DNA from: a virus
DNA: 64,000 nucleotides
Direction: 5' to 3' (one strand)
IMG/VR virus record: IMGVR_UViG_3300022856_000003
Shown: positions 138 to 53,119 of the stretch, one piece after another
Layout: each line of letters starts with the position of its first letter
How positions within the stretch are numbered: position 1 is the stretch's first letter
Position numbers and translations under genes: made by a program
Notes under the pieces: generated by a model
The model's input: only the letters and a program-made list of their open reading frames with translations
Told to the model about the DNA's origin: nothing
Database searches by the model: none

Positions 138-584
138 ATGTCATCAAAGCTGGAACGACTACGTCGTCTCAAAAAGCCGCAGAAATCTCCACAGGCGTTC
201 CCGATCGTCCGTAAGAAGTTCCCTGTTCCCGGTACCGACGGGCAGGGACCTCTACAGCCGGAACTTCTGTCTATCCAGCCCCTCTCCAAACCAGCAGCAC
301 TACTGGAGCTGTCTGAGAGCATCCAGAAGAAACGACGTGCGACCGGCAAGGTCATCGATGTGGATCTCTCTGAGTACGAGGGCAGACCTGATCAGAGATG
401 TGAGAACTGCCCTAACCAGGCTACTGCGTGGTTCCTGATCTACATGGACGACCAGGACATGGACTTCTTCTTCAACGATCAGCAGTACACAGGACCCCAC
501 CCGACTGCCTGTTGCACAGGTGCTTGTGCCAAAGAGTTCGGTGCCTGGGACGGAAGCAAGAAGGTTCGCGTCCGTCGCGTTTGA
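138..584 (+). CDS. Hypothetical protein with a gp23/MCP-like peptide (AFPIVRKKFP...ELLSIQPLSKP) and a Cys-rich C-terminal half
   Basis: AGGAG RBS at 125-129 and promoter at 89-117. CxxC and CCxxxC motifs in the C-terminal half. Confidence 0.7.
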   Translation: MSSKLERLRRLKKPQKSPQAFPIVRKKFPVPGTDGQGPLQPELLSIQPLSKPAALLELSESIQKKRRATGKVIDVDLSEYEGRPDQRCENCPNQATAWFLIYMDDQDMDFFFNDQQYTGPHPTACCTGACAKEFGAWDGSKKVRVRRV

Positions 585-9372: not shown

Positions 9373-10239
9373 ATGCGACGACTGCTCATCGGCCTTCCTC
9401 TCTTGGCATCCCTGCTCTTCACAGGTTGCGATCTCGCCAGCGGATCGCTCGACGAACCGATTGGGCCTGATGCCTCCTACGTCGAGGATGACCCGAGCGC
9501 GGACAACGATGGTGACGGCTGGGCCGCTCGTTGGGACTGCGACGACGGCAACGAGGACATCAATCCAGACGCCTCCGACACGGTGGGCGATGGTGTCGAC
9601 CGCAACTGCGACGGCGTGGACGGCGTGGACTTCGACCTCGACGGTTGGGCTGGTGAACCCAGTGGCGGCCAGGACTGCAACGACGACGATCCGAACGTCA
9701 ACCCAGACGCCCTCGAGATTCCATATGACCAGATCGACAACAACTGCGACGGCGAAGATGCGAACGGCATCACGACCTGCGACTCGGTACCGACCCCCAC
9801 CGGCAACGACATCGGCGACGTGACCGAGGACTTCCTTCTACGAGACAGTCAGAACAACCCGATCATCCTCAGCGACTACTGCGGTATGGCCGTCGTCCTG
9901 GCCTCCGTCGCTCGATGGGAGCCGAACAGCCACGACCTCGCACCAGTGCTACAGGACTTCTACGAGGAGTACCGCGAACAGGGACTCATGGTCATCACGA
10001 TGGTCGGCGAAGGCGTCATGTTCGGCGGCGACTCTGCGACTCCCGACGACCTGGACTGGTGGACCAGCGAGTACGACATCACCCACCCTGTCGTGGGCGA
10101 CCCAGACTGGGAGATCTCTGACCGTTGGGAAGAGGATTTCTACCTCCCGTCCTTCATCCTCATCGCCCCGGGCATGCGGTTGGTGGCGAGGGACCTTCTG
10201 ACCGTGACCGAGGACGACATCCTCTCGATCCTCCCCTAA
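9373..10239 (+). CDS. Lipoprotein with MopE-related metal-binding repeats and a C-terminal redoxin (TlpA/AhpC-like) fold lacking CxxC
   Basis: Lipobox LLFTG-C. Two DCxDxxxxxNPxAxxxxxDxxDxNCDG repeats. DFLLRDSQNNPIILSDYCGMAVVL...ARWEPNS...LPSFILIAPGMRLV. Confidence 0.75.
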   Translation: MRRLLIGLPLLASLLFTGCDLASGSLDEPIGPDASYVEDDPSADNDGDGWAARWDCDDGNEDINPDASDTVGDGVDRNCDGVDGVDFDLDGWAGEPSGGQDCNDDDPNVNPDALEIPYDQIDNNCDGEDANGITTCDSVPTPTGNDIGDVTEDFLLRDSQNNPIILSDYCGMAVVLASVARWEPNSHDLAPVLQDFYEEYREQGLMVITMVGEGVMFGGDSATPDDLDWWTSEYDITHPVVGDPDWEISDRWEEDFYLPSFILIAPGMRLVARDLLTVTEDDILSILP

Positions 10240-10283
10240 GAAATCTACCCTCCCTGGTTGACATCCACAGCCAGGGAGGTAGA

Positions 10284-10815
10284 GTGTTCTCACTTCGAGG
10301 GGGAACACCCCAAAAGGTACCCGCAGCCGCAAGGCGAGACTGACGAAATCGATTTCACTTCGGTGAGAAAGACTAGAAGGAAGGTGCCAGGGAGGGAGCC
10401 CAGAGCGCCCCTTGAAGTAGTTGACCGACCCTCAAAGTCGCAGCCACCAGGAAGCCTTCGCGGGAATCCCAGGTGCTCGGAAGGGGAAGGGACAACAGCC
10501 CGAAGGCGAAAGCCGGAAGGTGCCGACCCTCCACTGGGAGCGCCGCAAGGCGATGTGGAACAGGCAGGACCAGCAAAGCTCTCGAGTTGAGCCATTCCGA
10601 CAACACCCTCGTCACCCGCTTCGGCAGGTCACGGGGGTGAAGTCGTTGTGCTTAACATCACCGACTGCTAGTATGTGCTTGCCAGCCAACAGCGGACAAG
10701 GCTTTGGCCCGTGAGTGCGCGTCCTGGGCGTGGGAGGGGAGACCCGCTTTACCACCGATGGATGCCTGCAAACCGGGGTGGGTAGCGAGTGGCTGACCAT
10801 GGCTGGCCTTGACCC
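10284..10815 (+). ncRNA. Candidate large structured non-coding RNA (~530 nt)
   Basis: Own promoter (10258-10285) and no credible ORF. Tetraloop hairpins: GCC-GCAA-GGC 10326, TCAC-TTCG-GTGA 10355, GGC-GAAA-GCC 10505, CGCC-GCAA-GGCG 10541, a long cUUCGg hairpin at 10604-10639, GGG-GAGA-CCC 10736. Confidence 0.65.
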
Positions 10816-12264
10816 TTGATCTTGCGTCTTTGATGCCGTTGTGCTATGTTCAACAGGTCGAGACGACCCATTGATACCTCGCAGGTGCGAGGACCGGGAG
10901 AAGCCATGGACCAAAATACCCTCATCCTGACAGCAACCGACGGCGAAGAGATTCGCCTCATGCCGAACAGCTCTGGCACGGAAGGCACACATGCCATCTG
11001 CGTCAACGGCTGGAACGAGGGGATTGAGCATTTCGACAAGCATGGGGACGGCAATACTGTCATCCCATGCTCACCCGATCGGATTGGAGCAATGTCACCC
11101 GCTGATGCCTACCAGGAGTTCTTCCGTCGCATGGACGAGGAGTCCATCGACATGATCGTCCACGGTATGAATGCGGGCTTCTACGAGATGGCACAGGTGG
11201 AGCTGGACTACGCACATCGACCCTACGTCCTCAAGGTCCTCGGTGAACAGATGGGATGGGTAGAGCCCAACCCTGGCAACCTGACCTACTCGGCGTTTCG
11301 TTCACTGCCGACGATCGTTGGTCCAGTGAGTGCTGCGGACATCAACGGTTGCCTCGACGTGGTGAACGGATGAGAGCCAAGACCGAAATCGCGTACCACG
11401 CTGAGGAGCAGCTCTCCGCAGCACTACAGCTTGTGGCAGCTCTCGTCCTCACCGACGAGGAAGTTGCCGAAACGGCTCCTGATGCACGTCCAGGGAACCT
11501 CGTAGGGTGGGCCGAGTCGACGCGCAAGGAGATGCTCGACGAGCACAACAGACCGAAGATCGTGGCGATGCTCAAGCGTCGCGGGTACTACACGAACACG
11601 CATATCGGGTTCCCGCTGGCCTCGTTGAGTTCGCCAGGCCCTCGCGCACTCGAGGACGGCCTCGAGAAGTGTAGAGCCATCTCTGATGCCATACGAGATG
11701 GATCTATCAACTATGACCTCGACACTGGGCCGAAGAGCATGACTGATCGCCTTGTCCATGACGGGATGCGACAGGCCGATGCTGAATGGATAGTCAGAGC
11801 CCATGGCACAACGATGTTCCTCCTGGCGTCGATGGATAGGGTGATGGGACGAACGAAGTGACCGATCCCGAACCAGAGCGCGAGTACACAAGGAAGGAAG
11901 ACTTCATCTTCGATTTCCTCCTGTGGGCACTGCCAGGCATCCCGTATTTCGACACCGAGAAGAACCCGTTGAAGCGAATCAACGGAGACCAATGTGACTA
12001 CCCTGTCGACGACATTGTCCACCCGGCTGACTGGCCCGTTTGCTACACCCTCCTCTACACGAAGAGAGACGGAGCCGGAGAGTGCTGGACAAGTGCCATG
12101 GGATTCTCTCGATGGCTGTGGTTCGCGAGGCTCTGGCAGAAGATGGCGCTAAGGCACTACACGACCGAGCTTCGCAAGGACCAGAGAAAGTGGAAGCGAC
12201 GCCTTCCTCCTACTGGCTACGGCTACTCCGTGACCATCGTGCCGACGGTGTGGGTGGACTAGAC

Positions 12265-15078
12265 ATGAGCAAGAAGAATCGATTTGGCCCGAAGGGCGAC
12301 TGGAACCGCAAGTTCCACCCTGGGAAGGTCAAGAAGGCTGATCTCGACGACGACCTCGGCATAATCTTCGACATGGCGGCTGAGATCCATGCACAGGACA
12401 AGTCGCTGTTCGGTGAACTGTTCGATCAGATCTCCTCGCAACCCTCCCTTGTGAAGAAGTCGGCCTCTGTGACATTCGTTCCTGCTGCACAGAAGTCGCC
12501 GCAAGAACTGTTGCTGTCAGGTGAGATCAATGACTTCAAGAACTCCATCGCCGCCGCTTTCAGTATTCCGAAGGAGTTCATCTTCGGAGCGGACGAAGAT
12601 CCACCAGTCGTCCTGTGTAAAGGATGCGACCCGACACTGCTACAGGCCGATGTGGAGTGGTGCGAGATCTGCTACGTGGCAGGGATCAACCCCTGCGGTG
12701 AGATCCCAATGGATGGCCCACCCACGGACGAAATCGATTTCGCGACTCTGACCCCAGAGGTCTTCGCAAAGATGACCTCGTCTCAGCGCGGATCCATGGT
12801 CGGGAAGATCATGAAAGCGGTGGGCAAGTACTCACTCAATGGGCTCGATGTTCCGAAGGAACTGCTTGATGCTGTACAGGCTATGGCTCTAGCCGCGACG
12901 ACCCATCTCGACGCCAGCCCTGAGAATGACGAGCTACAGAACAAGATCAAGATCCCCAAATACGACATCAAGTTCGTCAAGGACAAGCCAGGGGCAGGAC
13001 TCATTCCTTGCGGACCGGTGACGCCGACACCCATGCCCTACCCGAAGTCTGGGCTCTGGGGGAATCTGAGCGCTCACGACCTCATCAGTGTCCAGCCGAT
13101 GACGAACCCAGCCGGAGCTAAGTTCCACTTCGACTACAAGTACGCCGAGGACGCCGAGAGCGAGGGCGTGGTCGTCGAGGACGAGGGGCTCCTGCTCGCT
13201 TCTCTCGGGTATAGCGACGGAGACATCAAGAAGATCCTCGCCGACAAGGCTGAGGCGAAGAAGAAGGAGTGGCAAGACTCTCTCCCTGGCCTGTCCGACA
13301 TCAAGCTGACGAAGACAGAGGTCACGGTCCACCCTGACAAGAAGCTCAAAGCCAAATGGGGTGTCGAACCCGTTGAGGACTTCAACAGTCCCGACAGCAT
13401 TCAGTCTGAGGCTGACCTGATAGGTGAATGGCTAGAGGACACAGGCGTGACGCCGACAGTGCTACCCAACCCGACAGATTTCGATGAGGACACTCTCGCC
13501 GCGTTCGCTGAGGCCAAGCTCAACAAACAGAAGGTCGCCCTGCTGGTGAAGGACTGGAGAAAGGTCCACCCTGGTCAGTCATTGCCACCGTTCTGTAAGA
13601 AGCATTCCGACTACGGCGCGATGATGTTCGGTGAGATCCTTGTCCACTGCGACAATGGGAACGGAACCCTGACCCTAGTCACAGGTGTGGTTGTCCCACA
13701 CTCGAGCGAAGGTGTGCAGATCATCGTGGAGAAGTCTCTTGCCTCCTCTGGAGGTGTGGGATTGAGCGACATGGGAGAAGCACTAGCCGACGTGGTCAAT
13801 AGCTCCCTGGATCTGCCACCACTGAAAGCAATCGACTACTTCCTTGCTATAGGCGTCTCAGGCTCGGACGCCCCGACCTACCTCCCACAGGGCTGCTACA
13901 TCGGAGCTGGCACGAAGAACATCGTATGGGGAGTGCCAGGCTCTCAACACGCTGTGACTGTGGCTGCCATCCACGAGAACCACTTCACCCTAGTGACAGG
14001 CGTGAACGTCCCGATCAAGCCGCCAATAGGCCCGAAGCCGATCTTCATGGATGCAGACGGCCAGAAGCCGATCTTCGCGCCCTACATCCCAGTCGAGTCG
14101 ACCCCCACGCTCGAGCTGAAAACAGCCAACGCCAAGTACGCGAAAAAGACTCTCAACCCGGCGCACTACGGTGTGGTCCCTCTCTCGAAGGGAAAGACGC
14201 AGACCGCTGTCGCAGCGAAGATGACCATCAAGGGCGTAAGCCAATCGATGATCTTCTTCGACGCCCAGACCGGGACCGAGTACTACATCGACCCCGTAAC
14301 TGGAGATCTTCACGAGGTGACTCGAGTCGTGACCAACGAAGACACCCTGACCGTGACAGTCATACCCAACAGTAAGAGCACGTTCTTTCCGGTGTCTCCA
14401 CTAGATGTCAAGAACGGAACACTGCCCTTCTCTATCAAGATGGCGATGAAAGCCAAGGCTGTCCTAGAGGCCAAGATCGCGCAGGAGACTGAGGAGATGG
14501 CTGACTTCAAGGAGCTGATGGGTGCTCCCCTCAAGGACAAGACCTCGTCAACGGACCAGTACAGCCCGATTCCCAAGCCCATCGTCTACCGAAAGAAGCT
14601 CCTCGGCGTGACCGTGGAACACATCCAATCGGAGCTGCTACCAGATGGTGAGAGCTTCCAGTACTACAAGGACGTAGTGACCGGAGACCTCCACAAGATC
14701 GTGGAAGCATCGAGCGGATGGGCCACATCCAAGGACGATGCGAAGACGTGGGTAATCGTCGAGGAGAACCCGGAAGCCACAGCTCCACCGACACACCCAC
14801 TGCTGCATAAGCTGAACACGAAGAAGAAAGTCAACGGTGATGTAGCAAGCCTCGAGGCTGAGGAGCACGTAGACGAGAATGGCGACCTCACTGTGAAGTG
14901 GGCTCCCAAAGCCAAGATGGTCACCCACACCGCTTCCTTCAAGAACAATGAGAAGCCTGAGAACCCAGACGACTTCATGTACGCAATGGAACAAGCTCAA
15001 GCTGACCGCATTCAGGCGAAGCTCGACGCAACACCACCATGGGAACAAGCACTCGACCTACTACACGACATGGACTAG
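12265..15078 (+). CDS. Large (937 aa) mosaic protein containing colinear gp23-type major capsid fragments and a portal-like peptide
   Basis: Probable start MSKKNRF at 12265, just after the previous stop. Motifs: AHDLISVQPMTNPAG..F.FDYKY; KKLKAKWGVEPVEDFNSPDSIQSEADL; FAPYIPVESTP; KYAKKTLNPAHYG. Confidence 0.65.
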   Translation: MSKKNRFGPKGDWNRKFHPGKVKKADLDDDLGIIFDMAAEIHAQDKSLFGELFDQISSQPSLVKKSASVTFVPAAQKSPQELLLSGEINDFKNSIAAAFSIPKEFIFGADEDPPVVLCKGCDPTLLQADVEWCEICYVAGINPCGEIPMDGPPTDEIDFATLTPEVFAKMTSSQRGSMVGKIMKAVGKYSLNGLDVPKELLDAVQAMALAATTHLDASPENDELQNKIKIPKYDIKFVKDKPGAGLIPCGPVTPTPMPYPKSGLWGNLSAHDLISVQPMTNPAGAKFHFDYKYAEDAESEGVVVEDEGLLLASLGYSDGDIKKILADKAEAKKKEWQDSLPGLSDIKLTKTEVTVHPDKKLKAKWGVEPVEDFNSPDSIQSEADLIGEWLEDTGVTPTVLPNPTDFDEDTLAAFAEAKLNKQKVALLVKDWRKVHPGQSLPPFCKKHSDYGAMMFGEILVHCDNGNGTLTLVTGVVVPHSSEGVQIIVEKSLASSGGVGLSDMGEALADVVNSSLDLPPLKAIDYFLAIGVSGSDAPTYLPQGCYIGAGTKNIVWGVPGSQHAVTVAAIHENHFTLVTGVNVPIKPPIGPKPIFMDADGQKPIFAPYIPVESTPTLELKTANAKYAKKTLNPAHYGVVPLSKGKTQTAVAAKMTIKGVSQSMIFFDAQTGTEYYIDPVTGDLHEVTRVVTNEDTLTVTVIPNSKSTFFPVSPLDVKNGTLPFSIKMAMKAKAVLEAKIAQETEEMADFKELMGAPLKDKTSSTDQYSPIPKPIVYRKKLLGVTVEHIQSELLPDGESFQYYKDVVTGDLHKIVEASSGWATSKDDAKTWVIVEENPEATAPPTHPLLHKLNTKKKVNGDVASLEAEEHVDENGDLTVKWAPKAKMVTHTASFKNNEKPENPDDFMYAMEQAQADRIQAKLDATPPWEQALDLLHDMD

Positions 15079-15527
15079 CCGGTGAGTGATCACTACACCC
15101 AAGGCATGAACACCCAATAGCACTAGCACTCACACCAGTGAGTCCCCTAGTAGTGCAGTCCTTGTCCAGTCATAGTCTGACCACCACCACAGCTCCAGAT
15201 CTTGCACCATTAGACGTGGTGACCCACCCTCCCCCCCATAGGTGCCAGCCCTAGCTACGTCAGCCCTGGCTTTCAAGCCCTAGCTAACAGCCCTAGACAA
15301 TTGTTAAGGGCTAGCTTACTCCCGCCCTAGTGATTGACCTAGTTGTACGACAAGCGGAAACAGCACCATTTATGGGAAGACCCCCCTCCCCCCTATTTCG
15401 CAGCCCTTCCGGTCTGTTCAGGTAGCAGCGTCCGCACCAATGGCGTGCTACTCCCGCAGCCGGAAAGCGCCGTTCCCATCAGGTCTCTGATCAGCACCAA
15501 TTTATGGGAAGACCCCTCCCCACTCTG
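15079..15527. repeat. Non-coding region with iterated AGCCCTAG units and a ~30-bp direct repeat (origin- or packaging-site-like)
   Basis: AGCCCT(A/G)G at 15247, 15262, 15276 and 15289, AGGGCTAG at 15307, GCCCTAG at 15324. CAGCACCA(A)TTTATGGGAAGACCCC(CC)TCCCC at 15361 and 15492. Confidence 0.7.
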
Positions 15528-15562
15528 TTGACGTGCTCTGATTGTTCAGCTAGAATGATTGT

Positions 15563-15694
15563 GAGGCGAGGTGTTCCAGGCAGCAACATGACGGGCGGTT
15601 CGATTCCGCTGACCGAGGGCGAAAGCTCCATACCGGCCCGGTTTGGGTGGTTGATAGAGGTTCCGTAGTGTTGCTGCCTTGAGCGCCTTGCTCC
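15563..15694 (+). ncRNA. Candidate ~130-nt tRNA-mimic / Y-RNA (YrlA)-like RNA
   Basis: Directly follows promoter 15528-15556. 15566-15589 pairs with 15668-15691 (long stem with G-U pairs). Canonical T-arm GGCGG-TTCGATT-CCGCT at 15594-15610, followed by a closed stem with a GAAA hairpin. Confidence 0.5.
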
Positions 15695-16766
15695 TAAATC
15701 CAAATGTTCGACGAGGTGTCGTTCAGGAGTTCTAAATGTCCCGTATCCGAGTAGTTCACATCGTCAGTGCGAAGTTGGAATTGTCCTTGAACCTTGCCGA
15801 GGTCCAGGCCGTCATGGTGGGAGTTGGTGAGGTTCACGTTGCGGTGTTGAACGACACGCTCAAGTTGAAAGGCGTTTCGGTCCCTGACGAAGTCTTCCAG
15901 CCCTTCGTCAGCGCATGGCCCGGCGCGATCACGATCTCCGACGAGAACGGAGCTTGGAGTGGTGCCTTCCGTCGAGACGGACTGGTGTCTGTCGCCTCGA
16001 CACCGGGAAGTCGAGCGATCACGTTCACTTACGACGACGGCAACATGGTCCAATGGCACGTCGATGCTGATGAGTACTTCGCCGAGGTCTTCAAGAACGC
16101 CCAGCGCCAGTTCGCCGCCTGATGGCAAACAAGATCTCATCGACCTACGCCGAAGCAATGGCACTTTGGTCGCGCATATGGTCGGATTTTCCACTAGGTG
16201 TCGGTGGCCGTGCGATTCTCCTGCTACTCGCTATTTGTTATGCGGTATTGCTTTTGCGGTCTCTCCTATGAGTACTCGCGCCGCCCACGATCCTCGCGGT
16301 GAACCTGGGATCGCCTTCACAGGTGAAAACCGAGCCGTCGTTTGGTTCGACGATGATGGGCACACCGCTTGGATCAAGGACAGTCACACCGGGTCCATCA
16401 GGTCTCAGTGGCGCAAGAAGGGCGATTGGGCCGCATGTATTGAGCTTCCTGCGCCGACCGAAGACGAGTTCAGTCACGAGTGGGATACTGCAACGCCTCG
16501 CGACCCGACAGTCACGGCCCACTGCCCGTCGCGGTGCCGTGGTTGTTGGGTGTGCCGATGAGTCAAAAAGCCACGGTATGGCTCATCATGACCGGCTGCG
16601 TCCACGAGGGTTGGTCGACGCACAACGTGAAGTTCGACAAGGATGCTGCTCGAAGCAGCTACGAGAATCTGGCAGGCAAGGAACCGACGACTGACCGCCG
16701 ACTCGAAGGTTGGCAAGTACGCCATGGGATGAAGAGCCGTCTCGTTCATGAAGAGCAGGAGGATCG

Positions 16767-24208: not shown

Positions 24209-24715
24209 ATGAGCACAGACCCACGACCATCCTGGCTACTCGACGCAAAGCTCAAGGTAGAGCTGGTGCCGCAGACATCCTGGGGCAACAACCTCCGATC
24301 CCTCCTGCGTCGAAAGGACTGGGATAACCTGCGCCGAGAGGCGTACATGAAGGCTGGTCACGTCTGCGAGATCTGCGGAGGCAAGGGTCGAAAGCACCCC
24401 GTCGAATGCCACGAGATCTGGGAGTACGACGACGATGCGAAGATCCAGAAGCTCACTGGGCTCATCGCTCTCTGTCCCGCGTGTCACCGCTGCAAGCACC
24501 CCGGTATGGCCGCAAGGATCGGCCTGATCGCCAACGTGTTCGCTCAGCTCGAGAAAGTGAATGGATGGACCTGGGACCAGGCCCGCGTGAGTCTCGAGCT
24601 TGCCTTTGAACTTCACCGACTCCGCTCGACCGTCCCCTGGACCGTCGACACGGACTGGCTCGGACTCGACGAGCAAGGTGTGACCTTGCTTCGCATGGGG
24701 ACTTCCGGTGAGTGA
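24209..24715 (+). CDS. HNH endonuclease family protein
   Basis: ELVPQTSWGNNLR...W...R...CEICGG...ECHEIWEYD...LIALCPACHRCKH. Confidence 0.75.
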   Translation: MSTDPRPSWLLDAKLKVELVPQTSWGNNLRSLLRRKDWDNLRREAYMKAGHVCEICGGKGRKHPVECHEIWEYDDDAKIQKLTGLIALCPACHRCKHPGMAARIGLIANVFAQLEKVNGWTWDQARVSLELAFELHRLRSTVPWTVDTDWLGLDEQGVTLLRMGTSGE

Positions 24716-25784
24716 TCGTTCCCAAGGCGAGTTCTGGGTCCACCGGAAGTACGCCGAACTCGTCAGCTACATGGTCGACTGCGGCGGATGCGAAGCCGAG
24801 AGCGAGGAGGAATGGCGTCTCCTGGTGTTCGAGCCCGCCTACGGCCAGTTACACGGGGATGCCAACGACGTAGAAGATACCACCGTTGTCCACATCACCC
24901 AGGGAGAGATGGCCGGAGGTGGCTACTCGGTCTCCGAGAGCATGGCTGGTCTAGGCATCCCGTTCCAGCACTACGGGAGCCGCCACTACATGTGGGCTGA
25001 GTACCGTAGTTGCTCTCTCGGCAAGCCAGGAGACTGGGGAAACTACGACTACGAGGGCGGGTACTGCCTGGAGTTCGGCAACGACTCAAAGCCTATCCCT
25101 AAGCATGTGGAGGTCATTGGGGCCTTTCATCACAGATGGCTCAAGATCGGACGCATCAACCTGGGGGCTTACCCCTATGTCCCGAAAGACGGCAGCGTGG
25201 GTGCGTGGTGGTTGAAGTACGTGGTTGAGAGGAAGGTCGAGGAGGCTGAGGCGGCTGAGAACAGTGTCGTCAAGGACATGTCGACTCAGATGGCTCAAGA
25301 GATCGACGCCGACATCATCAAGACGTTGAACGCTGGTTTCCAGAAAACAACGTCCGCGCTCGATGACGCGCAAGAGAAGCTCAAGCAGTTGAAGCTCAAG
25401 AAGGACCTCCTTGCATGGTCGGCGAAGAAGAAGGCCGCGAAGAAGAAGGCTAAGCTCGAGAAGCTCAAGGCGAAGAAGAAGCTCGTTGAGAAGGTCGTTG
25501 AGACGGCCATGGTCCAGAGCATGAAGAAGGACTTCAATATCGACTACTTCTGCGCTTCCTGTGAGGATCTCGGTTGCTTCCAGTGCGCGGAGAGTGAGCC
25601 TGAATCTTCCTGTACCGAATGCGACGGATCGGGTTGCTACGAATGTGAGGATGTCGTCGGGAAGTTCTTGCCGGATGCTGAGAACGGCACGGTCTGTAAG
25701 AAGCATGGCCTCTACGCCTGCTTTTCATGTGTTCCTGGCGCAGTCGAGCCTGATGTTCTGGACATCATCTACAACACGGACTGA
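24708..25784 (+). CDS. Mosaic hypothetical protein with a gp23-like helix, a Lys-rich coil and three Cys clusters
   Basis: ENSVVKDMSTQMAQEIDADIIKTL; KKKAAKKKAKLEKLKAKKK; CASCEDLGCFQC, CTECDGSGCYEC, CKKHGLYACFSC. Confidence 0.6.
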   Translation: MSDRSQGEFWVHRKYAELVSYMVDCGGCEAESEEEWRLLVFEPAYGQLHGDANDVEDTTVVHITQGEMAGGGYSVSESMAGLGIPFQHYGSRHYMWAEYRSCSLGKPGDWGNYDYEGGYCLEFGNDSKPIPKHVEVIGAFHHRWLKIGRINLGAYPYVPKDGSVGAWWLKYVVERKVEEAEAAENSVVKDMSTQMAQEIDADIIKTLNAGFQKTTSALDDAQEKLKQLKLKKDLLAWSAKKKAAKKKAKLEKLKAKKKLVEKVVETAMVQSMKKDFNIDYFCASCEDLGCFQCAESEPESSCTECDGSGCYECEDVVGKFLPDAENGTVCKKHGLYACFSCVPGAVEPDVLDIIYNTD

Positions 25785-45054: not shown

Positions 45055-47317
45055 ATGAAGTCCTTCATCACAGAACTGTCTGAGCCCACCGTCTCGGACC
45101 TCGACGAGGGCGGCTTCGGCTCCTCGCTCAAGGACGCGAAGAAGGCGGTCGACTCTTTGAAGTCGTCGTCGCACAACATCGTCAAGATGGGCACGGTGGG
45201 ATTGCCGAAGACGAAGTTCGCTCTGAACGACGGGACCACTGCTTACGTCTTCGAGCTGGTCAGTATCCAGTAGGAGTAGATGTGAAGAATCTGATCAAAG
45301 AACTGTCCGAAGATCCCGAAGAGACCGACGATCTCGAGGAGGCATCCGGCTCCTACGAGGGTGAGGGGATCCAGTTTACCGACAAGGAGGCTCGTGCCTT
45401 CCGTCTCGGAGTGGACCTCGGAAGGTTGTCTGGCCAGAAGAAGCTCAGACGTGTTGATTTCGAGATCAACAGCGACAACTTCGCGTTCGTGAGTTTCAAG
45501 GCGAAGAAGAAGGTCGGTGCTCACATCCTGATGTACCTCCGTGGATGGTGGAAGGTCACCTACCACTTCGACACCGAGAGTTTCGAGTCGAAGTGAAGCG
45601 CCTCATCGCCCATCTCGCAGAGTCCGCATCGGAACCTGGGATCGTCTGGTTCGCAGCGAACGAGTGGCCGAAGACATCTTCGCTCGCCACTGGCTCAAAG
45701 GCCGCTGAGAGGTACCCGTTGGTTCCCTTCGCGACCGTCTTCAAGAGTGGTGATCATCCGGGTGCGAACTTCAAGAGGAAGGACCTCCCAGGGAAGTTCG
45801 TCGTGAAGAAGGGTCGAGACCACTTCCTGATCGACTCGGGCGACAAGGACTACGGCAAGCGAGTCGCGAAGTTGCCGAAGTTCAAACCTGTGGCGCGCTT
45901 CCAGTGAAATCGCTCATCGACGACCTCCGCGAGATGACCCTCGCCGGGAACGTCGCCACCGTGGCAGTCCCATTGGGAGCCGTCCTCCGACGCCCATGGC
46001 CTGACATGTGGAAGAAGCGAAAGAAGCGCAAGAAGACTGAGTCCCTCGACGAGTCAGCGTCCGTCTGGAAGCAGATGGTCGACATCGATTCCAAGCTCGA
46101 CAGCGAAGCGCAGAACTGGAATCACAACCTCGCCGCTGTCTTCAAGCTCTATGAGAAGTTCGCATCGAGGCCAGCGAAGCTCGCAATAATTCTGGCCAAG
46201 TTCGACGCCCCGCACTGGCTGTCGACTGCGAAGGCGAAGCACGGCTTGGAACAGGTTCGCCTGCACGACAAGGCGCTGGCCAAAAGCATCATCCGTGAGA
46301 TCCGTCGCTGGGATGGCATGAAGGACGCGACATGAAGGCACTGATCAAAGATCTGGACGAGGTTGCTGTCCCACCGAAAGCCCGGAGGGTGGAGGTTACG
46401 ATGGCAATCGAGGGGAAGACTCTGATCATCGAGACCCCTGCTGGAACGATGGAGGTCCTCAACTTCAAGAAGTCGGCGATCGGTGAGGAACCAGCGCGGT
46501 TCAATGGTCACGTACCGAAGACCTGGATGAAGTCGTGAAGGCACTGATCAAGGCACTCAAGGGTCGTGACGCAGAATCCATCCGAGTGGTGGTACGCGCT
46601 GAACTCGAGGTTTCAGGGTTCGTTACCGTCGAGGACGGGAAGATCAAGGCGTTCGTCGGTCCTGACAAGAAAGAGATCGAGTCACAGATGCGTGATGGTC
46701 TCGTGAAGGTCCAGTCCCTCATCGGAGCATCTAGGCGCGATGTTCTCGCTGGGGCAAAGAAATCGGGACTGGTATAGTCCGGATGTAGCCCGCGACGGTG
46801 CGGGCCAGGAGGTTCCATGAAGTACCGCTGTTGCAACTGTTCCCACATCGACACCAATGGCTCGAAGTGCTCGAAGTGCGGGTCCAACTCGCTCGAGACC
46901 CTCTCGCCCGCCAACCAGCCCACTGCTGAGAGCGCACCCCAGGGTGGTCCACAGCTTCTCTGCGAAGTGCCCGACGATCGAAAGCCCGTAGGCAACCAGA
47001 TCAACGGGTGAAATCGATTTCGCGGAGAAGACATGAAGGCATTGATCCAGTCGATCGACGAAAGCAAGTCGGTACCGCTCAAGGTCCTACGCGCACTCTC
47101 GTCGGGTGTGTTCGGTAACGCGAAGTCGTCGATCCTGTATTGGGCCGATGGTGGCGTCTACAAGATCACGTCTAGTGGCGAGGTCTCGTTCGATAAGAAG
47201 AAGATCGGGAAAGTGGACAGCCGTGACGATCTCCTGCTCGCTCTGTCTTCCGGTCGAGGAGGCTCGTACAAGGTCGGGTCGAAGACCGTGAAGTTCGGAG
47301 CTTCGTCGAAGAAATGA
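45055..47317 (+). CDS. Cluster of small putative internal head proteins with 10-aa N-terminal capsid-targeting leaders
   Basis: 45055 MKSFITELSE; 45282 MKNLIKELSE; 45593 MKRLIAHLAE; 45904 MKSLIDDLRE; 46332 MKALIKDLDE; 46535 MKALIKALKG; 47033 MKALIQSIDE. Confidence 0.75.
46817..47011 (+). CDS. Small zinc-ribbon protein
   Basis: MKYRCCNCSH...KCSKCGS. AGGAGG RBS. Confidence 0.6.
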   Translation: MKYRCCNCSHIDTNGSKCSKCGSNSLETLSPANQPTAESAPQGGPQLLCEVPDDRKPVGNQING

Positions 47318-50545: not shown

Positions 50546-50974
50546 ATGATCGACCACACCCTTGTCTTCGGCATAGTCGCCGTCATTGGCCTTCTCATTG
50601 TAGGAGGCGTGCTCTACGCCATCCCAGTCACTCGCCCTTATGCAAGGAAGTTCTGGTGGATTCTGGCCATCGCGATCCTGTTCGCCATCGGGCTCATCGT
50701 CCTGCGAAAGCGACCAGGCAACTGGACGACGCTCCAGAAGTACAAGGACGACGCCGAAGGCGACCACATCCTCCGCGACTCGATGGGTGGATTCGATGAG
50801 TTGATCGACCATGCAAAAGAGAAGTCGGTCCTCGCTGATGCAGAACTCGCCGCGACCCGCATGAAGGCAGAGAAGGACCGCACGGTCTACGTCGCGAAGC
50901 TGGATGTCGTGAAGGAGATCGACGACTCCATCGTTCGGCGCAAGGCACTCATCCGGTTGGTGGAGGGCGCATGA
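50546..50974 (+). CDS. Membrane-anchored coiled-coil protein
   Basis: Two N-terminal hydrophobic segments followed by a charged helix. Confidence 0.5.
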   Translation: MIDHTLVFGIVAVIGLLIVGGVLYAIPVTRPYARKFWWILAIAILFAIGLIVLRKRPGNWTTLQKYKDDAEGDHILRDSMGGFDELIDHAKEKSVLADAELAATRMKAEKDRTVYVAKLDVVKEIDDSIVRRKALIRLVEGA

Positions 50975-51519
50975 CGACTCGGCGACACGCTTTGAAGCTG
51001 AGTGCCGCTTTCGCGGCAGCAGCCATGCTCGGACCGAAATCGATTTCGTCTCAGGTGGTGACACCGGACGTTCACGACGAAAAGTGGATCCGCGACACGC
51101 TCACGGACATAGCCCGTTCGTTTAACGGCAGATCAGGTGAACGAGCAGCAGGAATCCTAATAGGAGCCATGATGCGTCTTCGCCGCTTGTGGCCGTGGCA
51201 CGACTGGACTTGTATCTACGATGAGGCTCGTGACGTGGCTCTCGTGGACACTCCAGACGGTGTGATCGAGGTCAAGACCTTCATCCAGACATTCGACCGG
51301 CACTTCTGCTTTCACGGTCTGGATGCTGCTGCTGAGTTGTGTTCCTGCATAGCGATGAAGTCCTGGTACCAGTGGCGCATGGAGCTTCTCGGCGAGACCC
51401 TCGAGCAATGTGCTGATGAGTGGGCAAAGCAGGAGCTTCGCGTCCATCCACACTGGGGTCAGGGTGAGCGCAACTGGGCCGCTATCCAGAGAGAACTCGA
51501 CTTCAAGGGCTGGTCATGA
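50971..51519 (+). CDS. Hypothetical protein with a twin-arginine-like leader
   Basis: MTTRRHALKLSAAFAAAAMLGP. Confidence 0.45.
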   Translation: MTTRRHALKLSAAFAAAAMLGPKSISSQVVTPDVHDEKWIRDTLTDIARSFNGRSGERAAGILIGAMMRLRRLWPWHDWTCIYDEARDVALVDTPDGVIEVKTFIQTFDRHFCFHGLDAAAELCSCIAMKSWYQWRMELLGETLEQCADEWAKQELRVHPHWGQGERNWAAIQRELDFKGWS

Positions 51520-52810: not shown

Positions 52811-53119
52811 ATGACCATTTCGTTTCGACCCTTCTCTCACAACGTCCTAGTCCTTCGCTCGCAGGCCGAAGACAAGACCCATAGCGGTCTGTTCATCCCG
52901 GAGGACGCAGCCGAGGCACAGCGCCCGTTCCAGGGAGAGGTCATCGCCGTCGGTGCCGACCTCGATGGCAAGGTCAATGTCGGAGAGATCGTCGCCTACG
53001 GGAAGTACTCCGGTACGCCTCTGCTCCTGGGAGATGCGGCCAAGCCTGTCGAGCACGTCGTTCTCACCTGGACGGATCTCTTGGGAGCCGTGGAAGGGAT
53101 TGAACCCGATGCCTCGTAG
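52811..53119 (+). CDS. groES: Co-chaperonin GroES (Cpn10)
   Basis: FRPFSHNVLV...KTHSGLFIP...QGEVIAVG...VNVGEIVAYGKYSGT...DLLGAVE. Confidence 0.9.
   Translation: MTISFRPFSHNVLVLRSQAEDKTHSGLFIPEDAAEAQRPFQGEVIAVGADLDGKVNVGEIVAYGKYSGTPLLLGDAAKPVEHVVLTWTDLLGAVEGIEPDAS

What the first reader, a model, noticed from the sequence alone, without database searches (positions are those of the whole stretch)
12265..15078. 937-aa protein built around colinear scraps of T4-type major capsid protein plus a portal-like peptide
Seen and compared from memory with gp23-family consensus: 13057-13143 NLSAHDLISVQPMTNPAGAKFHFDYKY (cf. NLIA.D...VQPM..PTG..F.L...Y); 13300-13419 IKLTKTEVTVHPDKKLKAKWGVEPVEDFNSPDSIQSEADL (cf. 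I....VTAK.RKLKA.WT.E.AQDL.A.H..DAEAEL); 14071-14178 FAPYIPVESTP...KYAKKTLNPAHYG (cf. YAPYIPL..TP...RYAKK.....FYG). These are in the correct order but separated by long unrelated inserts, and core segments are missing. 12535-12588 FKNSIAAAFSIPKEFIFG resembles the gp20-type portal segment F..KL..AL.IPK.YL. The gene is outside any structural operon and carries the C-terminal tag. Established: host defences sense capsid and portal proteins (Lit via the gp23 Gol peptide that spans the VQPM segment, CapRel via capsid, Avs via portal/terminase). Inference: a multi-epitope decoy or sponge for pattern-recognition immunity, an assembly poison against competing phages, or an exapted MCP paralog.
Basis: partly seen in the sequence, partly recalled or inferred. 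Interest (0 to 1): 0.85.

Follow-up and report, generated by a model that had tools for sequence, protein, structure and literature searches.

The report
Early-expressed, heavily remodelled capsid-protein derivative
An uncultured 144-kb phage carries, among its early genes and about 51 kb from its head genes, an intact 937-residue protein whose centre keeps only three short conserved blocks of the phage's own coat protein; it is clearly derived from a coat protein but almost certainly not a normal shell subunit, and its job is unknown.

Summary
The ORF at 12265-15078 is intact. Three colinear stretches (aa 263-300, 340-396, 590-648) each match Gp23-type major capsid proteins (MCPs) on their own (hhalign E 2e-13, 8e-6, 2e-9). 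Joined, they align along a whole MCP (E 1e-12). Everything else scores at noise level: both extensions, the 46-aa and roughly 200-aa segments between the blocks, and the "portal-like" peptide (E 2.7 by BLASTP, 0.019 by profile).

The phage's real MCP (P0030) sits beside a gp21-type protease about 51 kb away and is no closer to P0001 than other phages' MCPs are. P0001 lacks three MCP features:
- the insertion domain;
- the A-domain signature (5 of 23 conserved positions kept, against 15 of 25 in the N-arm);
- the propeptide cleavage motif.

AlphaFold2 with the MCP family as alignment gave pLDDT 46.6 for P0001, against 73.6 for the true MCP run as a control.

P0001 is the last gene of a translationally coupled four-gene operon behind one of nine sigma70-type promoters confined to the early block. 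It carries the acidic-hydrophobic C-terminal tail found on 19 of 82 plus-strand ORFs.

Best reading: an exapted MCP derivative that keeps the P-domain/N-arm core and has a non-shell role. A decoy role is not excluded but nothing supports it. This scan has noted similar capsid-derived accessory genes on other phage DNA.

The parts
10258..10285 (+). sigma70-type promoter (TTGACA-N16-TAGAGT) upstream of the four-gene operon that ends with P0001
   Evidence: one of nine such sites in the window, all on the + strand and none on the - strand. None occurs in about 45 kb of replication, portal or MCP DNA.
10906..12262 (+). three upstream orphan genes (155, 163 and 134 aa), translationally coupled to each other and to P0001 (4-nt overlaps; stop TAG two bases before the P0001 ATG)
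   Evidence: No Pfam family at E<=0.1. No MCP signal.
12265..15078 (+). P0001 coding sequence, 937 aa
   Evidence: GC3 is 0.72, against a genome value of 0.70 +/- 0.07.
12265..12771 (+). orphan N-terminal extension (aa 1-169), with a CxxC-x11-CxxC zinc-ribbon-like cluster at aa 118-136 (12616-12672)
   Evidence: no family, no MCP signal.
12772..13050 (+). helical region (aa 170-262) lying where an MCP propeptide would be, ending in a Pro-rich linker; no LxE protease site
   Evidence: Included in the joined hhalign alignment. It is the best-scoring part of the AF2 model (pLDDT 61-72) and has a weak Atlas feature hit to N-terminal Gp23 fragments (0.76). It has no stand-alone signal. The first [LIVM]xE motif is at aa 303.
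13051..13164 (+). anchor 1 (aa 263-300): MCP N-arm / SVQPM block, equivalent to the T4 gp23 Gol region
   Evidence: hhalign Prob 98, E 2.2e-13 to MCP 81-115. Also.
13165..13281 (+). short acidic/Lys-rich segment replacing the roughly 120-aa E-loop insertion domain of true MCPs
   Evidence: 14 of 27 conserved columns are gaps; E 0.91
13282..13452 (+). anchor 2 (aa 340-396): KLKAxW strand and start of the spine helix
   Evidence: hhalign Prob 83.5, E 8.4e-6 to MCP 237-283. Also.
13453..14031 (+). roughly 195-aa segment in the position of the A-domain, with no detectable MCP similarity
   Evidence: E 0.13, off register. 5 of 23 conserved A-domain positions are kept. The AF2 model has low confidence here.
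14032..14208 (+). anchor 3 (aa 590-648): C-terminal P-domain strands (APYxP ... YAKK ... YG), equivalent to the very C-terminus of true MCPs
   Evidence: hhalign Prob 96.3, E 2e-9 to MCP 433-491. Default hhalign gives Prob 95.6, E 1e-8.
14209..15033 (+). orphan C-terminal extension (aa 649-923), with an internal duplication of about 55 aa (approximately aa 660-714 and 788-846; 14239-14403 and 14623-14802)
   Evidence: Smith-Waterman z = 9.1, 0 of 300 shuffles. No family.
15034..15075 (+). C-terminal acidic-hydrophobic tail (..ALDLLHDMD) shared with many early proteins of this phage
   Evidence: Conservation is at peptide level, with varied Leu codons.

Best explanation
P0001 is an intact, early-class gene for a chimeric protein whose centre descends from this phage lineage's own Gp23-type (HK97-fold) major capsid protein (MCP).

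Only three elements have been kept under constraint:
- the end of the N-arm with the SVQPM strand;
- the KLKAxW strand with the start of the spine helix;
- the C-terminal strands.
In known HK97-fold structures these pack together as the P-domain core. The insertion domain is deleted, the A-domain signature and the propeptide cleavage motif are gone, and orphan domains have been added at both ends, followed by a tail shared with about 20 other early proteins.

Inference: P0001 cannot build capsomers, because A-domain contacts make the capsomer centre. It is therefore not a shell subunit. It is a soluble look-alike of the periphery of a free MCP subunit.

The mechanism I consider most likely is heterotypic binding to MCP-type subunits or to a factor that handles free MCP. 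That would modulate or block head assembly, either of co-infecting relatives early in infection or of the phage's own heads. The C-terminal tail would dock the protein to a hub or time its turnover.

What is shown: homology, architecture, losses, and gene class. What is inferred: the P-domain unit, the absence of polymerisation, the binding partner, and the role of the tail.
For: Homology:
- Three stand-alone significant blocks.
- Joined colinear alignment of P0001 170-647 to MCP 7-491, Prob 97.8, E 1.1e-12.
- In 1.8 billion representatives, the only hits are MCPs of the same clade.

Differential retention of MCP-conserved positions:
- N-arm 15/25;
- C-terminal block 13/29;
- KLKAxW strand plus spine helix 6/23, with 5 more similar;
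- A-domain 5/23;
- propeptide 2/11;
- insertion region 14 of 27 columns gapped.

Other points:
- There is no LxE site before aa 303, whereas the true MCP has LNE at the propeptide junction.
- The true MCP P0030 sits beside a Peptidase_S77 fusion in a head module about 51 kb away.
- P0001 is no closer to P0030 than to foreign MCPs.
- Early class: the operon lies behind the sigma70-type promoter at 10258, and such promoters are confined to the early block.
- The tail is shared with 19 of 82 plus-strand ORFs, among them the AAA ATPase; the DNA ligase ends in a looser variant.
- AF2 with the MCP family as alignment does not give a confident HK97 fold (pLDDT 46.6, pTM 0.35; Foldseek best E 0.56). 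The same procedure folds the true MCP (73.6 / 0.59; T4 and P1 capsid hits at E 1e-21 to 1e-16).
- The ORF is intact and its GC3 is typical of the genome.
Against: - There is no direct evidence of expression, localisation or binding.
- The protein has no relatives and the population is clonal, so selection cannot be measured.
- The three blocks are also the slowest-evolving parts of the Gp23 family. [quoted passage not shown] Part of the uneven retention is therefore expected in any old paralog.
- The order of predicted helices and strands after the spine helix parallels the true MCP, so a complete but very diverged HK97 fold is not excluded. The AF2 failure may only reflect the lack of a P0001-specific alignment.
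- Early transcription does not exclude packaging into heads.
- A self-made assembly blocker would have to spare the phage's own heads.
Confidence: 0.4

Rival explanations
1. Minor virion protein. P0001 is a specialised capsid subunit, such as a vertex or special-site protein analogous to T4 gp24, or a protein carried into the prohead through its MCP-like parts. Its extensions would form surface or internal decorations.
For: It is an MCP homologue along the whole MCP length. T4 gp24 is likewise a distant paralog of gp23; the family profile hits gp24 only weakly (E 9e-8). No gp24-like gene follows the MCP: the next gene shows no MCP signal. The order of secondary-structure elements parallels the MCP. 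Notes from other genomes suggest that capsid propeptide pieces can act as tickets into the head (leads only).
Against: It lies about 51 kb from the head module, in an operon behind an early-type promoter. It has no protease site and no capsid-targeting leader. The A-domain signature needed for capsomer contacts is lost. AF2 does not support a canonical fold, while the control does fold. It shares its tail with enzymes such as the AAA ATPase, which are not virion parts; the ligase has a looser form of the tail.
Confidence: 0.15
2. Immune decoy or sponge. P0001 would display the conserved MCP surface (the Gol-equivalent N-arm and the P-domain) early in infection, to occupy host sensors of capsid protein (Lit/EF-Tu-type, CapRel-type, STAND/Avs-type) without activating them.
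For: The best-kept block is the equivalent of the Gol region that Lit senses through EF-Tu. P0001 belongs to the early class. A second small early protein (ORF 138-584) carries another copy of the same N-arm motif (E 1e-4, best of 107 ORFs).
Against: The portal 'epitope' is at chance level, so 'multi-epitope' is unsupported. Known capsid sensors are activated by binding their ligand, so a look-alike made early would risk triggering them sooner (established mechanism of Lit and CapRel; PMC3014915, PMC9712102). The literature searches found no precedent. The host and its defences are unknown.
Confidence: 0.12
3. Generic domain reuse. The MCP-derived sheet survives only as a structural scaffold, and the protein's activity lies in the orphan N-terminal (zinc-ribbon) and C-terminal (duplicated module) parts. 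Nothing capsid-related remains in its function.
For: About 800 of the 937 residues have no MCP signal. The added domains include a genuine internal duplication. The three blocks are what any fading paralog would keep longest (PMC3014915).
Against: Anchor 1 keeps 15 of 25 family-conserved positions, with E 2e-13 over 35 residues. That is a tighter constraint than a mere scaffold would need. Two other genes of the same phage show marginal MCP-piece resemblances, which hints at reuse for a capsid-related reason.
Confidence: 0.2
4. Decaying duplicate with no function, or chance similarity.
For: It is a singleton with no relatives, and AF2 confidence is low.
Against: It is a 937-codon open frame with genome-typical GC3 and is translationally coupled in an operon. 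The same gene recurs on contigs from several metagenome samples. The homology statistics exclude chance.
Confidence: 0.05

Closest known systems
T4 gp23 major capsid protein family (Pfam PF07068; PDB 5VF3, 7VS5, 6UZC)
   Same: Three conserved blocks in the right order: the N-arm/SVQPM block (equivalent to the Gol region), the KLKAxW strand with the spine-helix start, and the C-terminal APYxP...YAKK strands. Clade-specific residues are shared with this phage's own MCP lineage.
   Different: It scores below the Pfam gathering threshold. It has no insertion domain, no A-domain signature, no propeptide cleavage site and no confident HK97 model. It is twice the size because of orphan extensions, belongs to the early gene class, and lies about 51 kb from the head module.
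T4 gp24 head vertex protein (paralog of gp23; PDB 1YUE)
   Same: A second, distantly related copy of the MCP within one phage genome.
   Different: gp24 is a complete HK97 fold of MCP-like size. It is encoded next to gp23, expressed late, processed by gp21 and built into vertices. None of these holds or could be shown for P0001.
Satellite capsid-redirecting proteins, e.g. Ccm of capsid-forming PICIs (an MCP-like fold) and SaPI CpmB
   Same: Coat-like or coat-binding proteins that act by heterotypic contact with a phage's MCP to alter assembly. This is the mechanism I propose as most likely.
   Different: Those proteins are encoded by satellites and act on a helper phage. P0001 is encoded by the phage itself, is far larger, and no binding has been shown.
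Gol peptide of T4 gp23 with Lit protease and EF-Tu (PMC3014915)
   Same: P0001's best-conserved block is the positional equivalent of the Gol region.
   Different: Gol acts as part of nascent gp23 and triggers abortive infection. Whether the P0001 block binds EF-Tu or any sensor is untested.
Sliding-clamp-binding C-terminal tails (T4 gp43/gp55/gp33 'hydrophobic and acidic C-termini', PMC2988020; bacterial beta-clamp motif QL(S/D)LF, PMC9690074)
   Same: P0001's tail (..Q-A-LDLL-HDMD) and the tails of about 20 other early proteins are short, C-terminal and acidic-hydrophobic. They follow a linker and share an LD-hydrophobic-hydrophobic core.
   Different: I found no phage clamp or DNA polymerase in the parts of the genome I read. 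The number of tagged proteins is far larger than in any known clamp interactome of a phage.

Membership tests
Gp23 major capsid protein family (PF07068) | Score at or above the Pfam gathering threshold, with coverage of most of the profile | tested here: not met
   23.1 bits against a cut-off of 24.4. Only profile positions 18-49 of 376 are matched.
Gp23 major capsid protein family (PF07068) | Colinear homology along the whole MCP | tested here: inconclusive
   The joined hhalign alignment spans MCP 7-491 (Prob 97.8, E 1e-12). Only three blocks, about 135 aa in total, carry signal on their own.
Gp23 major capsid protein family (PF07068) | HK97 fold with A-domain and P-domain | tested here: inconclusive
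   AF2 gives pLDDT 46.6 and pTM 0.35, and the best Foldseek E is 0.56. The control MCP gives 73.6 / 0.59 and capsid hits at E 1e-21.
Gp23 major capsid protein family (PF07068) | N-terminal propeptide removed by the gp21-type protease at an LxE site | tested here: not met
   There is no [LIVM]xE motif before aa 303. The true MCP has LNE at the junction.
Gp23 major capsid protein family (PF07068) | Encoded in the head module beside the protease/scaffold genes | tested here: not met
   The true MCP lies beside Peptidase_S77. P0001 lies in an early operon about 51 kb away.
T4 gp24-type vertex protein | MCP-sized complete paralog adjacent to the MCP gene that forms pentamers | tested here: not met
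   Its size is 937 aa and its location is remote. The gene after the MCP has no MCP signal either. Pentamer formation cannot be tested with these tools.
T4-type portal (PF07230) | Significant match to the portal profile | tested here: not met
   No hit at E<=10. BLASTP against the phage's own portal gives E 2.7. hhalign against a portal alignment gives Prob 2.5%, E 0.019.
T4-type capsid-targeted internal proteins | N-terminal 10-residue targeting leader ending in LxE | tested here: not met
   The N-terminus is MSKKNRFGPK and no LxE motif is nearby.
Encapsulin-like shell with C-terminally tagged cargo | Complete HK97 shell protein, with the targeting peptides on the cargo rather than on the shell | tested here: not met
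   The fold was not confirmed, and P0001 itself carries the tail.
Clamp-binding proteins | C-terminal motif that binds the hydrophobic cleft of a sliding clamp | not testable with these tools
Anti-defence decoy or sponge | Binds an immune sensor or its signal and blocks activation | not testable with these tools
   The host and its defence systems are unknown.

The most novel reading that the evidence does not exclude
P0001, together with the small N-arm-bearing protein at 138-584, is an early-made, non-polymerising mimic of free capsid protein. It would neutralise a host factor that recognises the conserved N-arm/P-domain surface of T4-type MCPs, such as a Lit/EF-Tu-like or CapRel/STAND-like capsid sensor. 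That would make it the first capsid-mimic anti-defence protein. Its clamp-binding-like tail would place it on a hub shared by about 20 early proteins.
Probability: 0.12. Interest if true: 0.85.

Novelty: new variant of a known kind. Interest (0 to 1): 0.5.

Why it matters
Phage genomes rarely keep paralogs of their coat protein, and the textbook case (T4 gp24) is still a shell subunit. P0001 is a coat-protein derivative that has lost what is needed to build capsomers and has kept the P-domain/N-arm core. It has gained new domains and moved into the early programme.

Earlier notes of this scan describe comparable capsid-derived accessory genes in several other large uncultured phages. If the class is real, it points to an unstudied use of capsid-protein pieces: control of assembly, competition between phages, or interference with capsid-sensing immunity. 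P0001 gives a concrete construct to test, namely aa 255-650 with and without the extensions and the tail.

Tried and rejected
Searches for relatives and families:
- GenBank phages, by protein and by DNA: no match.
- IMG/VR: no relative.
- Word-indexed protein search: only P0001 itself.
- PDB sequence search: nothing at E<=10.
- NCBIfam: nothing.
- Pfam on the separate N- and C-terminal parts and on the operon partners: nothing.
- ESM Atlas: its own model is poor (pLDDT 0.38). The C-terminal part gave no usable hit. The N-terminal part gave only a weak lead to Gp23 fragments.

Genome and regulation:
- No whole genome is held for this window.
- Rfam on 10200-15800: nothing.
- The T4 late promoter TATAAATA is absent from the window, and no late motif was evident upstream of the MCP.
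- dN/dS is impossible, because all five fetched contigs are identical.

Ideas considered and rejected:
- A recent duplication of the phage's own MCP. P0001 is no closer to P0030 than to foreign MCPs.
- An encapsulin-like shell. P0001 itself carries the tail and its fold is unconfirmed.
- The tail as a DNA-level motif. The codons vary.
Full report
**1. The object.** The frame at 12265-15078 (+) is open for 937 codons. Its ATG follows the stop of the upstream gene by two bases, and the three upstream genes overlap one another by four bases, so the four genes form a translationally coupled operon. The identical protein is encoded on nine metagenome contigs from several samples, the longest about 144 kb. 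The gene and its flanks are identical at nucleotide level in all five contigs fetched. The gene is therefore real and circulating, but selection cannot be measured. GC3 is 0.72, typical of the genome (0.70 +/- 0.07).

**2. Is the capsid resemblance real?** Yes.
- Pfam Gp23 hits aa 267-298 (E 5.6e-5, 23.1 bits, just below the 24.4 cut-off), and phrog_138 'major head protein' gives E 1.3e-4.
- An exhaustive phmmer search of 1.8 billion cluster representatives found, apart from the query, only three proteins. All are bona fide Gp23 MCPs (Pfam E 1e-69 to 1e-74), each matched in three stretches.
- BLASTP shows the same three colinear HSPs against each of them and against this phage's own MCP.
- Against a 20-sequence MCP alignment, default hhalign reports the C-terminal block alone at Prob 95.6, E 1e-8. 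With a permissive MAC threshold the three blocks join into one alignment of P0001 170-647 to MCP 7-491 (Prob 97.8, E 1.1e-12).
- Tested separately, aa 263-300, 340-396 and 590-648 give E 2.2e-13, 8.4e-6 and 2e-9. The N-extension, aa 165-262, 299-344, 395-592 and the C-extension give E 0.02-0.9, no better than shuffles or off register.

**3. The phage's true MCP and genome context.** Among relatives of the best hit, P0030 (492 aa) lies on a contig of the same length as P0001's longest. It sits directly after a 718-aa Peptidase_S77 (gp21-type) fusion protein. Walking the contig from the window's end gave, in order: ThyX, an IstB-like loader, a DnaB-type helicase, MazG, an amidase, a 334-aa protein ending in an SSB-like acidic tip, a ResIII helicase, a RecA-type recombinase, ParB_N, a 670-aa protein (probably the terminase), and a Portal_T4 portal. 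From the window offsets in earlier notes, the window is record 64001-128000 of a 144,042-bp record and the head module lies at about 21-25 kb. P0001 is thus about 51 kb from the MCP. The gene after the MCP shows no MCP signal, so no gp24-like paralog is adjacent. P0030 is at most 35% identical to the MCP of any isolated phage, so this is a deep uncultured Gp23-type clade. P0001 is no closer to P0030 (38.5, 35.8 and 32.7 bits) than to foreign MCPs of the clade. It does share clade-specific residues, and its only significant hits in the whole library belong to that clade. It is therefore an old or fast-evolving derivative of this lineage's MCP stock, not a recent copy.

**4. What was kept and what was lost.** In a 41-sequence alignment I counted the columns conserved in at least 90% of the 40 MCPs. 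P0001 keeps:
- 15 of 25 in the N-arm/SVQPM block;
- 13 of 29 in the C-terminal block;
- 6 of 23 (plus 5 similar) in the KLKAxW strand and spine helix;
- 5 of 23 in the A-domain;
- 2 of 11 in the propeptide;
- 8 of 27 in the insertion/E-loop region, where 14 columns are gaps, so the roughly 120-aa insertion domain is deleted.

There is no [LIVM]xE motif before aa 303, whereas the true MCP has LNE at the propeptide junction. There is no capsid-targeting leader.

From established knowledge of the HK97 fold, the three retained blocks supply the strands and the helix start that pack together as the P-domain core. The A-domain makes the contacts at the centre of the capsomer. The control model's secondary structure places strands 100-110, 236-254, 439-451, 463-473 and 479-485 and the helix start at 258-298 inside the three blocks. 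My inference is that P0001 keeps a P-domain-like unit but not what is needed to form capsomers.

**5. Structure prediction.** AF2 on aa 165-650 with the MCP family as alignment gave mean pLDDT 46.6 and pTM 0.35. Foldseek found nothing at E<=0.001. The top-ranked rows are T4, SU10 and P1 capsid proteins, but at E 0.56-2.5 and TM 0.15-0.19, and the model was driven by the alignment, so this is not independent evidence. As a control, the true MCP with a 20-sequence alignment gave pLDDT 73.6 and pTM 0.59, and hit P1 and T4 capsid proteins at E 1e-21 to 1e-16. The procedure can therefore fold a real MCP of this clade, but it does not support a canonical HK97 fold for P0001. After the spine helix, the order of predicted elements in P0001 (helix, strands, long helix, strand, helix, then six strands) parallels the MCP, so a complete but very diverged fold is not excluded. 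The ESM Atlas's own model of the whole protein is poor (pLDDT 0.38).

**6. The rest of the protein.** The N-terminal 169 residues contain a CxxC-x11-CxxC cluster. The C-terminal extension contains a genuine duplication of about 55 residues (z = 9.1). No family was found for either part. Atlas features for aa 1-263 point weakly (0.76, a lead only) to N-terminal Gp23 fragments, which is consistent with the hhalign extension into the propeptide region.

**7. The portal-like peptide.** The phage's own portal became available. Against a 20-sequence portal alignment, hhalign gives P0001 86-162 to portal 343-434 with Prob 2.5% and E 0.019, and the best of 20 shuffles was 0.041. That is marginal at most, and I treat it as unsupported.

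**8. Expression class.** Nine sites of the form TTGA(C/A)N-N15-18-TA(G/T)(A/G)(A/G)T occur in the window, all on the + strand and none on the - strand. None occurs in about 45 kb of replication, terminase, portal, protease or MCP DNA. P0001's operon lies downstream of the site at 10258, and the next site (15528) follows P0001. P0001 thus belongs to the host-sigma70-type, presumably early, class, unlike the true MCP.

**9. The tail.** P0001 ends in an acidic-hydrophobic motif with the core A-L-D-L-L, four residues before the stop. The pattern [LIVMA][LIVM][DE]x[LIVMF] in the last 16 residues occurs in 19 of 82 plus-strand ORFs, against 3.6% of interior windows and 0 of 39 minus-strand ORFs. Leu codons vary, so the conservation is at peptide level. 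Carriers include an AAA ATPase; the ATP-dependent DNA ligase ends in a looser variant that the strict pattern does not count. The tail resembles two known elements: the 'hydrophobic and acidic C-termini' that tether T4 gp43, gp55 and gp33 to the sliding clamp through a variable linker (PMC2988020), and the bacterial beta-clamp motif QL(S/D)LF 'at their C-terminus' (PMC9690074). I saw no phage clamp or polymerase in the parts of the genome I read.

**10. Interpretation.** What is shown: a coat-protein derivative, its architecture, its losses, its gene class and the shared tail. What is inferred: the function.

I commit to a non-polymerising look-alike of the periphery of a free MCP subunit that acts by heterotypic contact with MCP-type subunits or with an MCP-handling factor, as an assembly modulator or blocker. 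The tail would serve for docking or turnover (confidence 0.4).

The rivals are a minor virion protein (0.15), an immune decoy (0.12), generic domain reuse (0.2), and a relic or chance similarity (0.05).

The decoy idea is weakened in three ways. The portal leg is lost. Lit and CapRel are switched on by their ligand (PMC3014915, PMC9712102). I found no precedent in the literature. It gains a little from a second N-arm-like fragment in the 148-aa ORF at 138-584 (E 1e-4, best of 107 ORFs, about 0.01 after correction).

**11. Relation to earlier notes of this scan.** Notes on other genomes describe stand-alone A-domain genes, a capsid piece fused to a zinc-ribbon protein, three 'spare' diverged MCP genes 29 kb from the head operon, propeptide look-alikes, and T4 gene 61.1. 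They are unchecked leads. They do suggest that P0001 is one more instance, the largest and most remodelled so far, of a recurring and undescribed class of capsid-derived accessory genes in large T4-type phages.

Noticed in passing
window 10906-62336 (stop codons of about 19 plus-strand genes): An acidic-hydrophobic C-terminal tail (core [LIVMA][LIVM][DE]x[LIVMF], usually 3-5 residues before the stop) occurs on 19 of 82 plus-strand ORFs, against 3.6% of interior windows. Codons vary. Carriers include an AAA ATPase; the DNA ligase ends in a looser variant. It resembles clamp-binding tails of T4 gp43/gp55/gp33 and the beta-clamp motif QL(S/D)LF.
   Followed up: partly
window 138-584 (+): A 148-aa protein, encoded just after a tail-tube-like gene, has an N-terminal part (aa 2-62) that aligns to MCP 49-109 (the FPxxRRxFP ... 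SxQP N-arm motif with a 7-aa insertion). hhalign gives E 1e-4, the best of 107 window ORFs. The fragment is fused to a Cys-rich domain. It is a second, independent MCP N-arm fragment.
   Followed up: partly
window 24708-25784 (+), aa 182-219: A spine-helix-like stretch in a 358-aa tagged protein (hhalign E 4.6e-4, Prob 33; Pfam Gp23 E 0.09). This is marginal and could be coiled-coil-like chance. ORFs 50971-51519 and 45904-46335 score E 1e-3 and 2e-3.
   Followed up: partly
window 15079-15735: The 657-bp gap after P0001 holds several features. An exact 16-mer occurs twice (15369 and 15501) and nowhere else in the window. GCCCTAG-type repeats lie at about 15250-15335. A sigma70-type promoter lies at 15528-15556. 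A 179-nt transcript leader (15557-15735) folds at -79.4 kcal/mol (z -4.55, 0 of 200 shuffles). There is no Rfam match and no tRNA.
   Followed up: partly
window 9301, 10258, 15528, 18675, 22852, 33130, 53644, 57122, 59232: Nine sigma70-type promoter matches, all on the + strand and none on the - strand. They are absent from about 45 kb of replication and head-module DNA, and they delimit an early gene block.
   Followed up: partly
window 10286-10905: A roughly 620-nt gap lies between the promoter at 10258 and the first gene of the P0001 operon. It is rich in GAAGG/GGAAGG repeats. Gene callers place small minus-strand ORFs there in some contigs but not in identical copies.
   Followed up: no
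L011:15958-16962 and L011-L013 generally: A 334-aa protein ends in an SSB-like acidic tip (..DDEDIPF). The phage has a DnaB-type helicase with an IstB-like loader, RecA, a ResIII helicase and ThyX. No DNA polymerase or sliding clamp was seen between the window's end and the portal, so the phage may rely on the host replisome.
   Followed up: partly
window about 52811-53119 (L009:479-787): A phage-encoded Cpn10 (GroES-like) gene. T4's gp31 co-chaperonin is needed to fold gp23, which may be relevant to how MCP-like proteins are handled here.
   Followed up: no
L006:105-2261: A 718-aa fusion of a gp21-type prohead protease (Peptidase_S77) with a long C-terminal part, directly upstream of the true MCP. 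In T4 the protease and the scaffold are separate genes.
   Followed up: no
L001-L005 against window 10865-15728: There are zero nucleotide differences over about 4.9 kb among contigs from five different metagenome samples, indicating a clonal phage population.
   Followed up: yes
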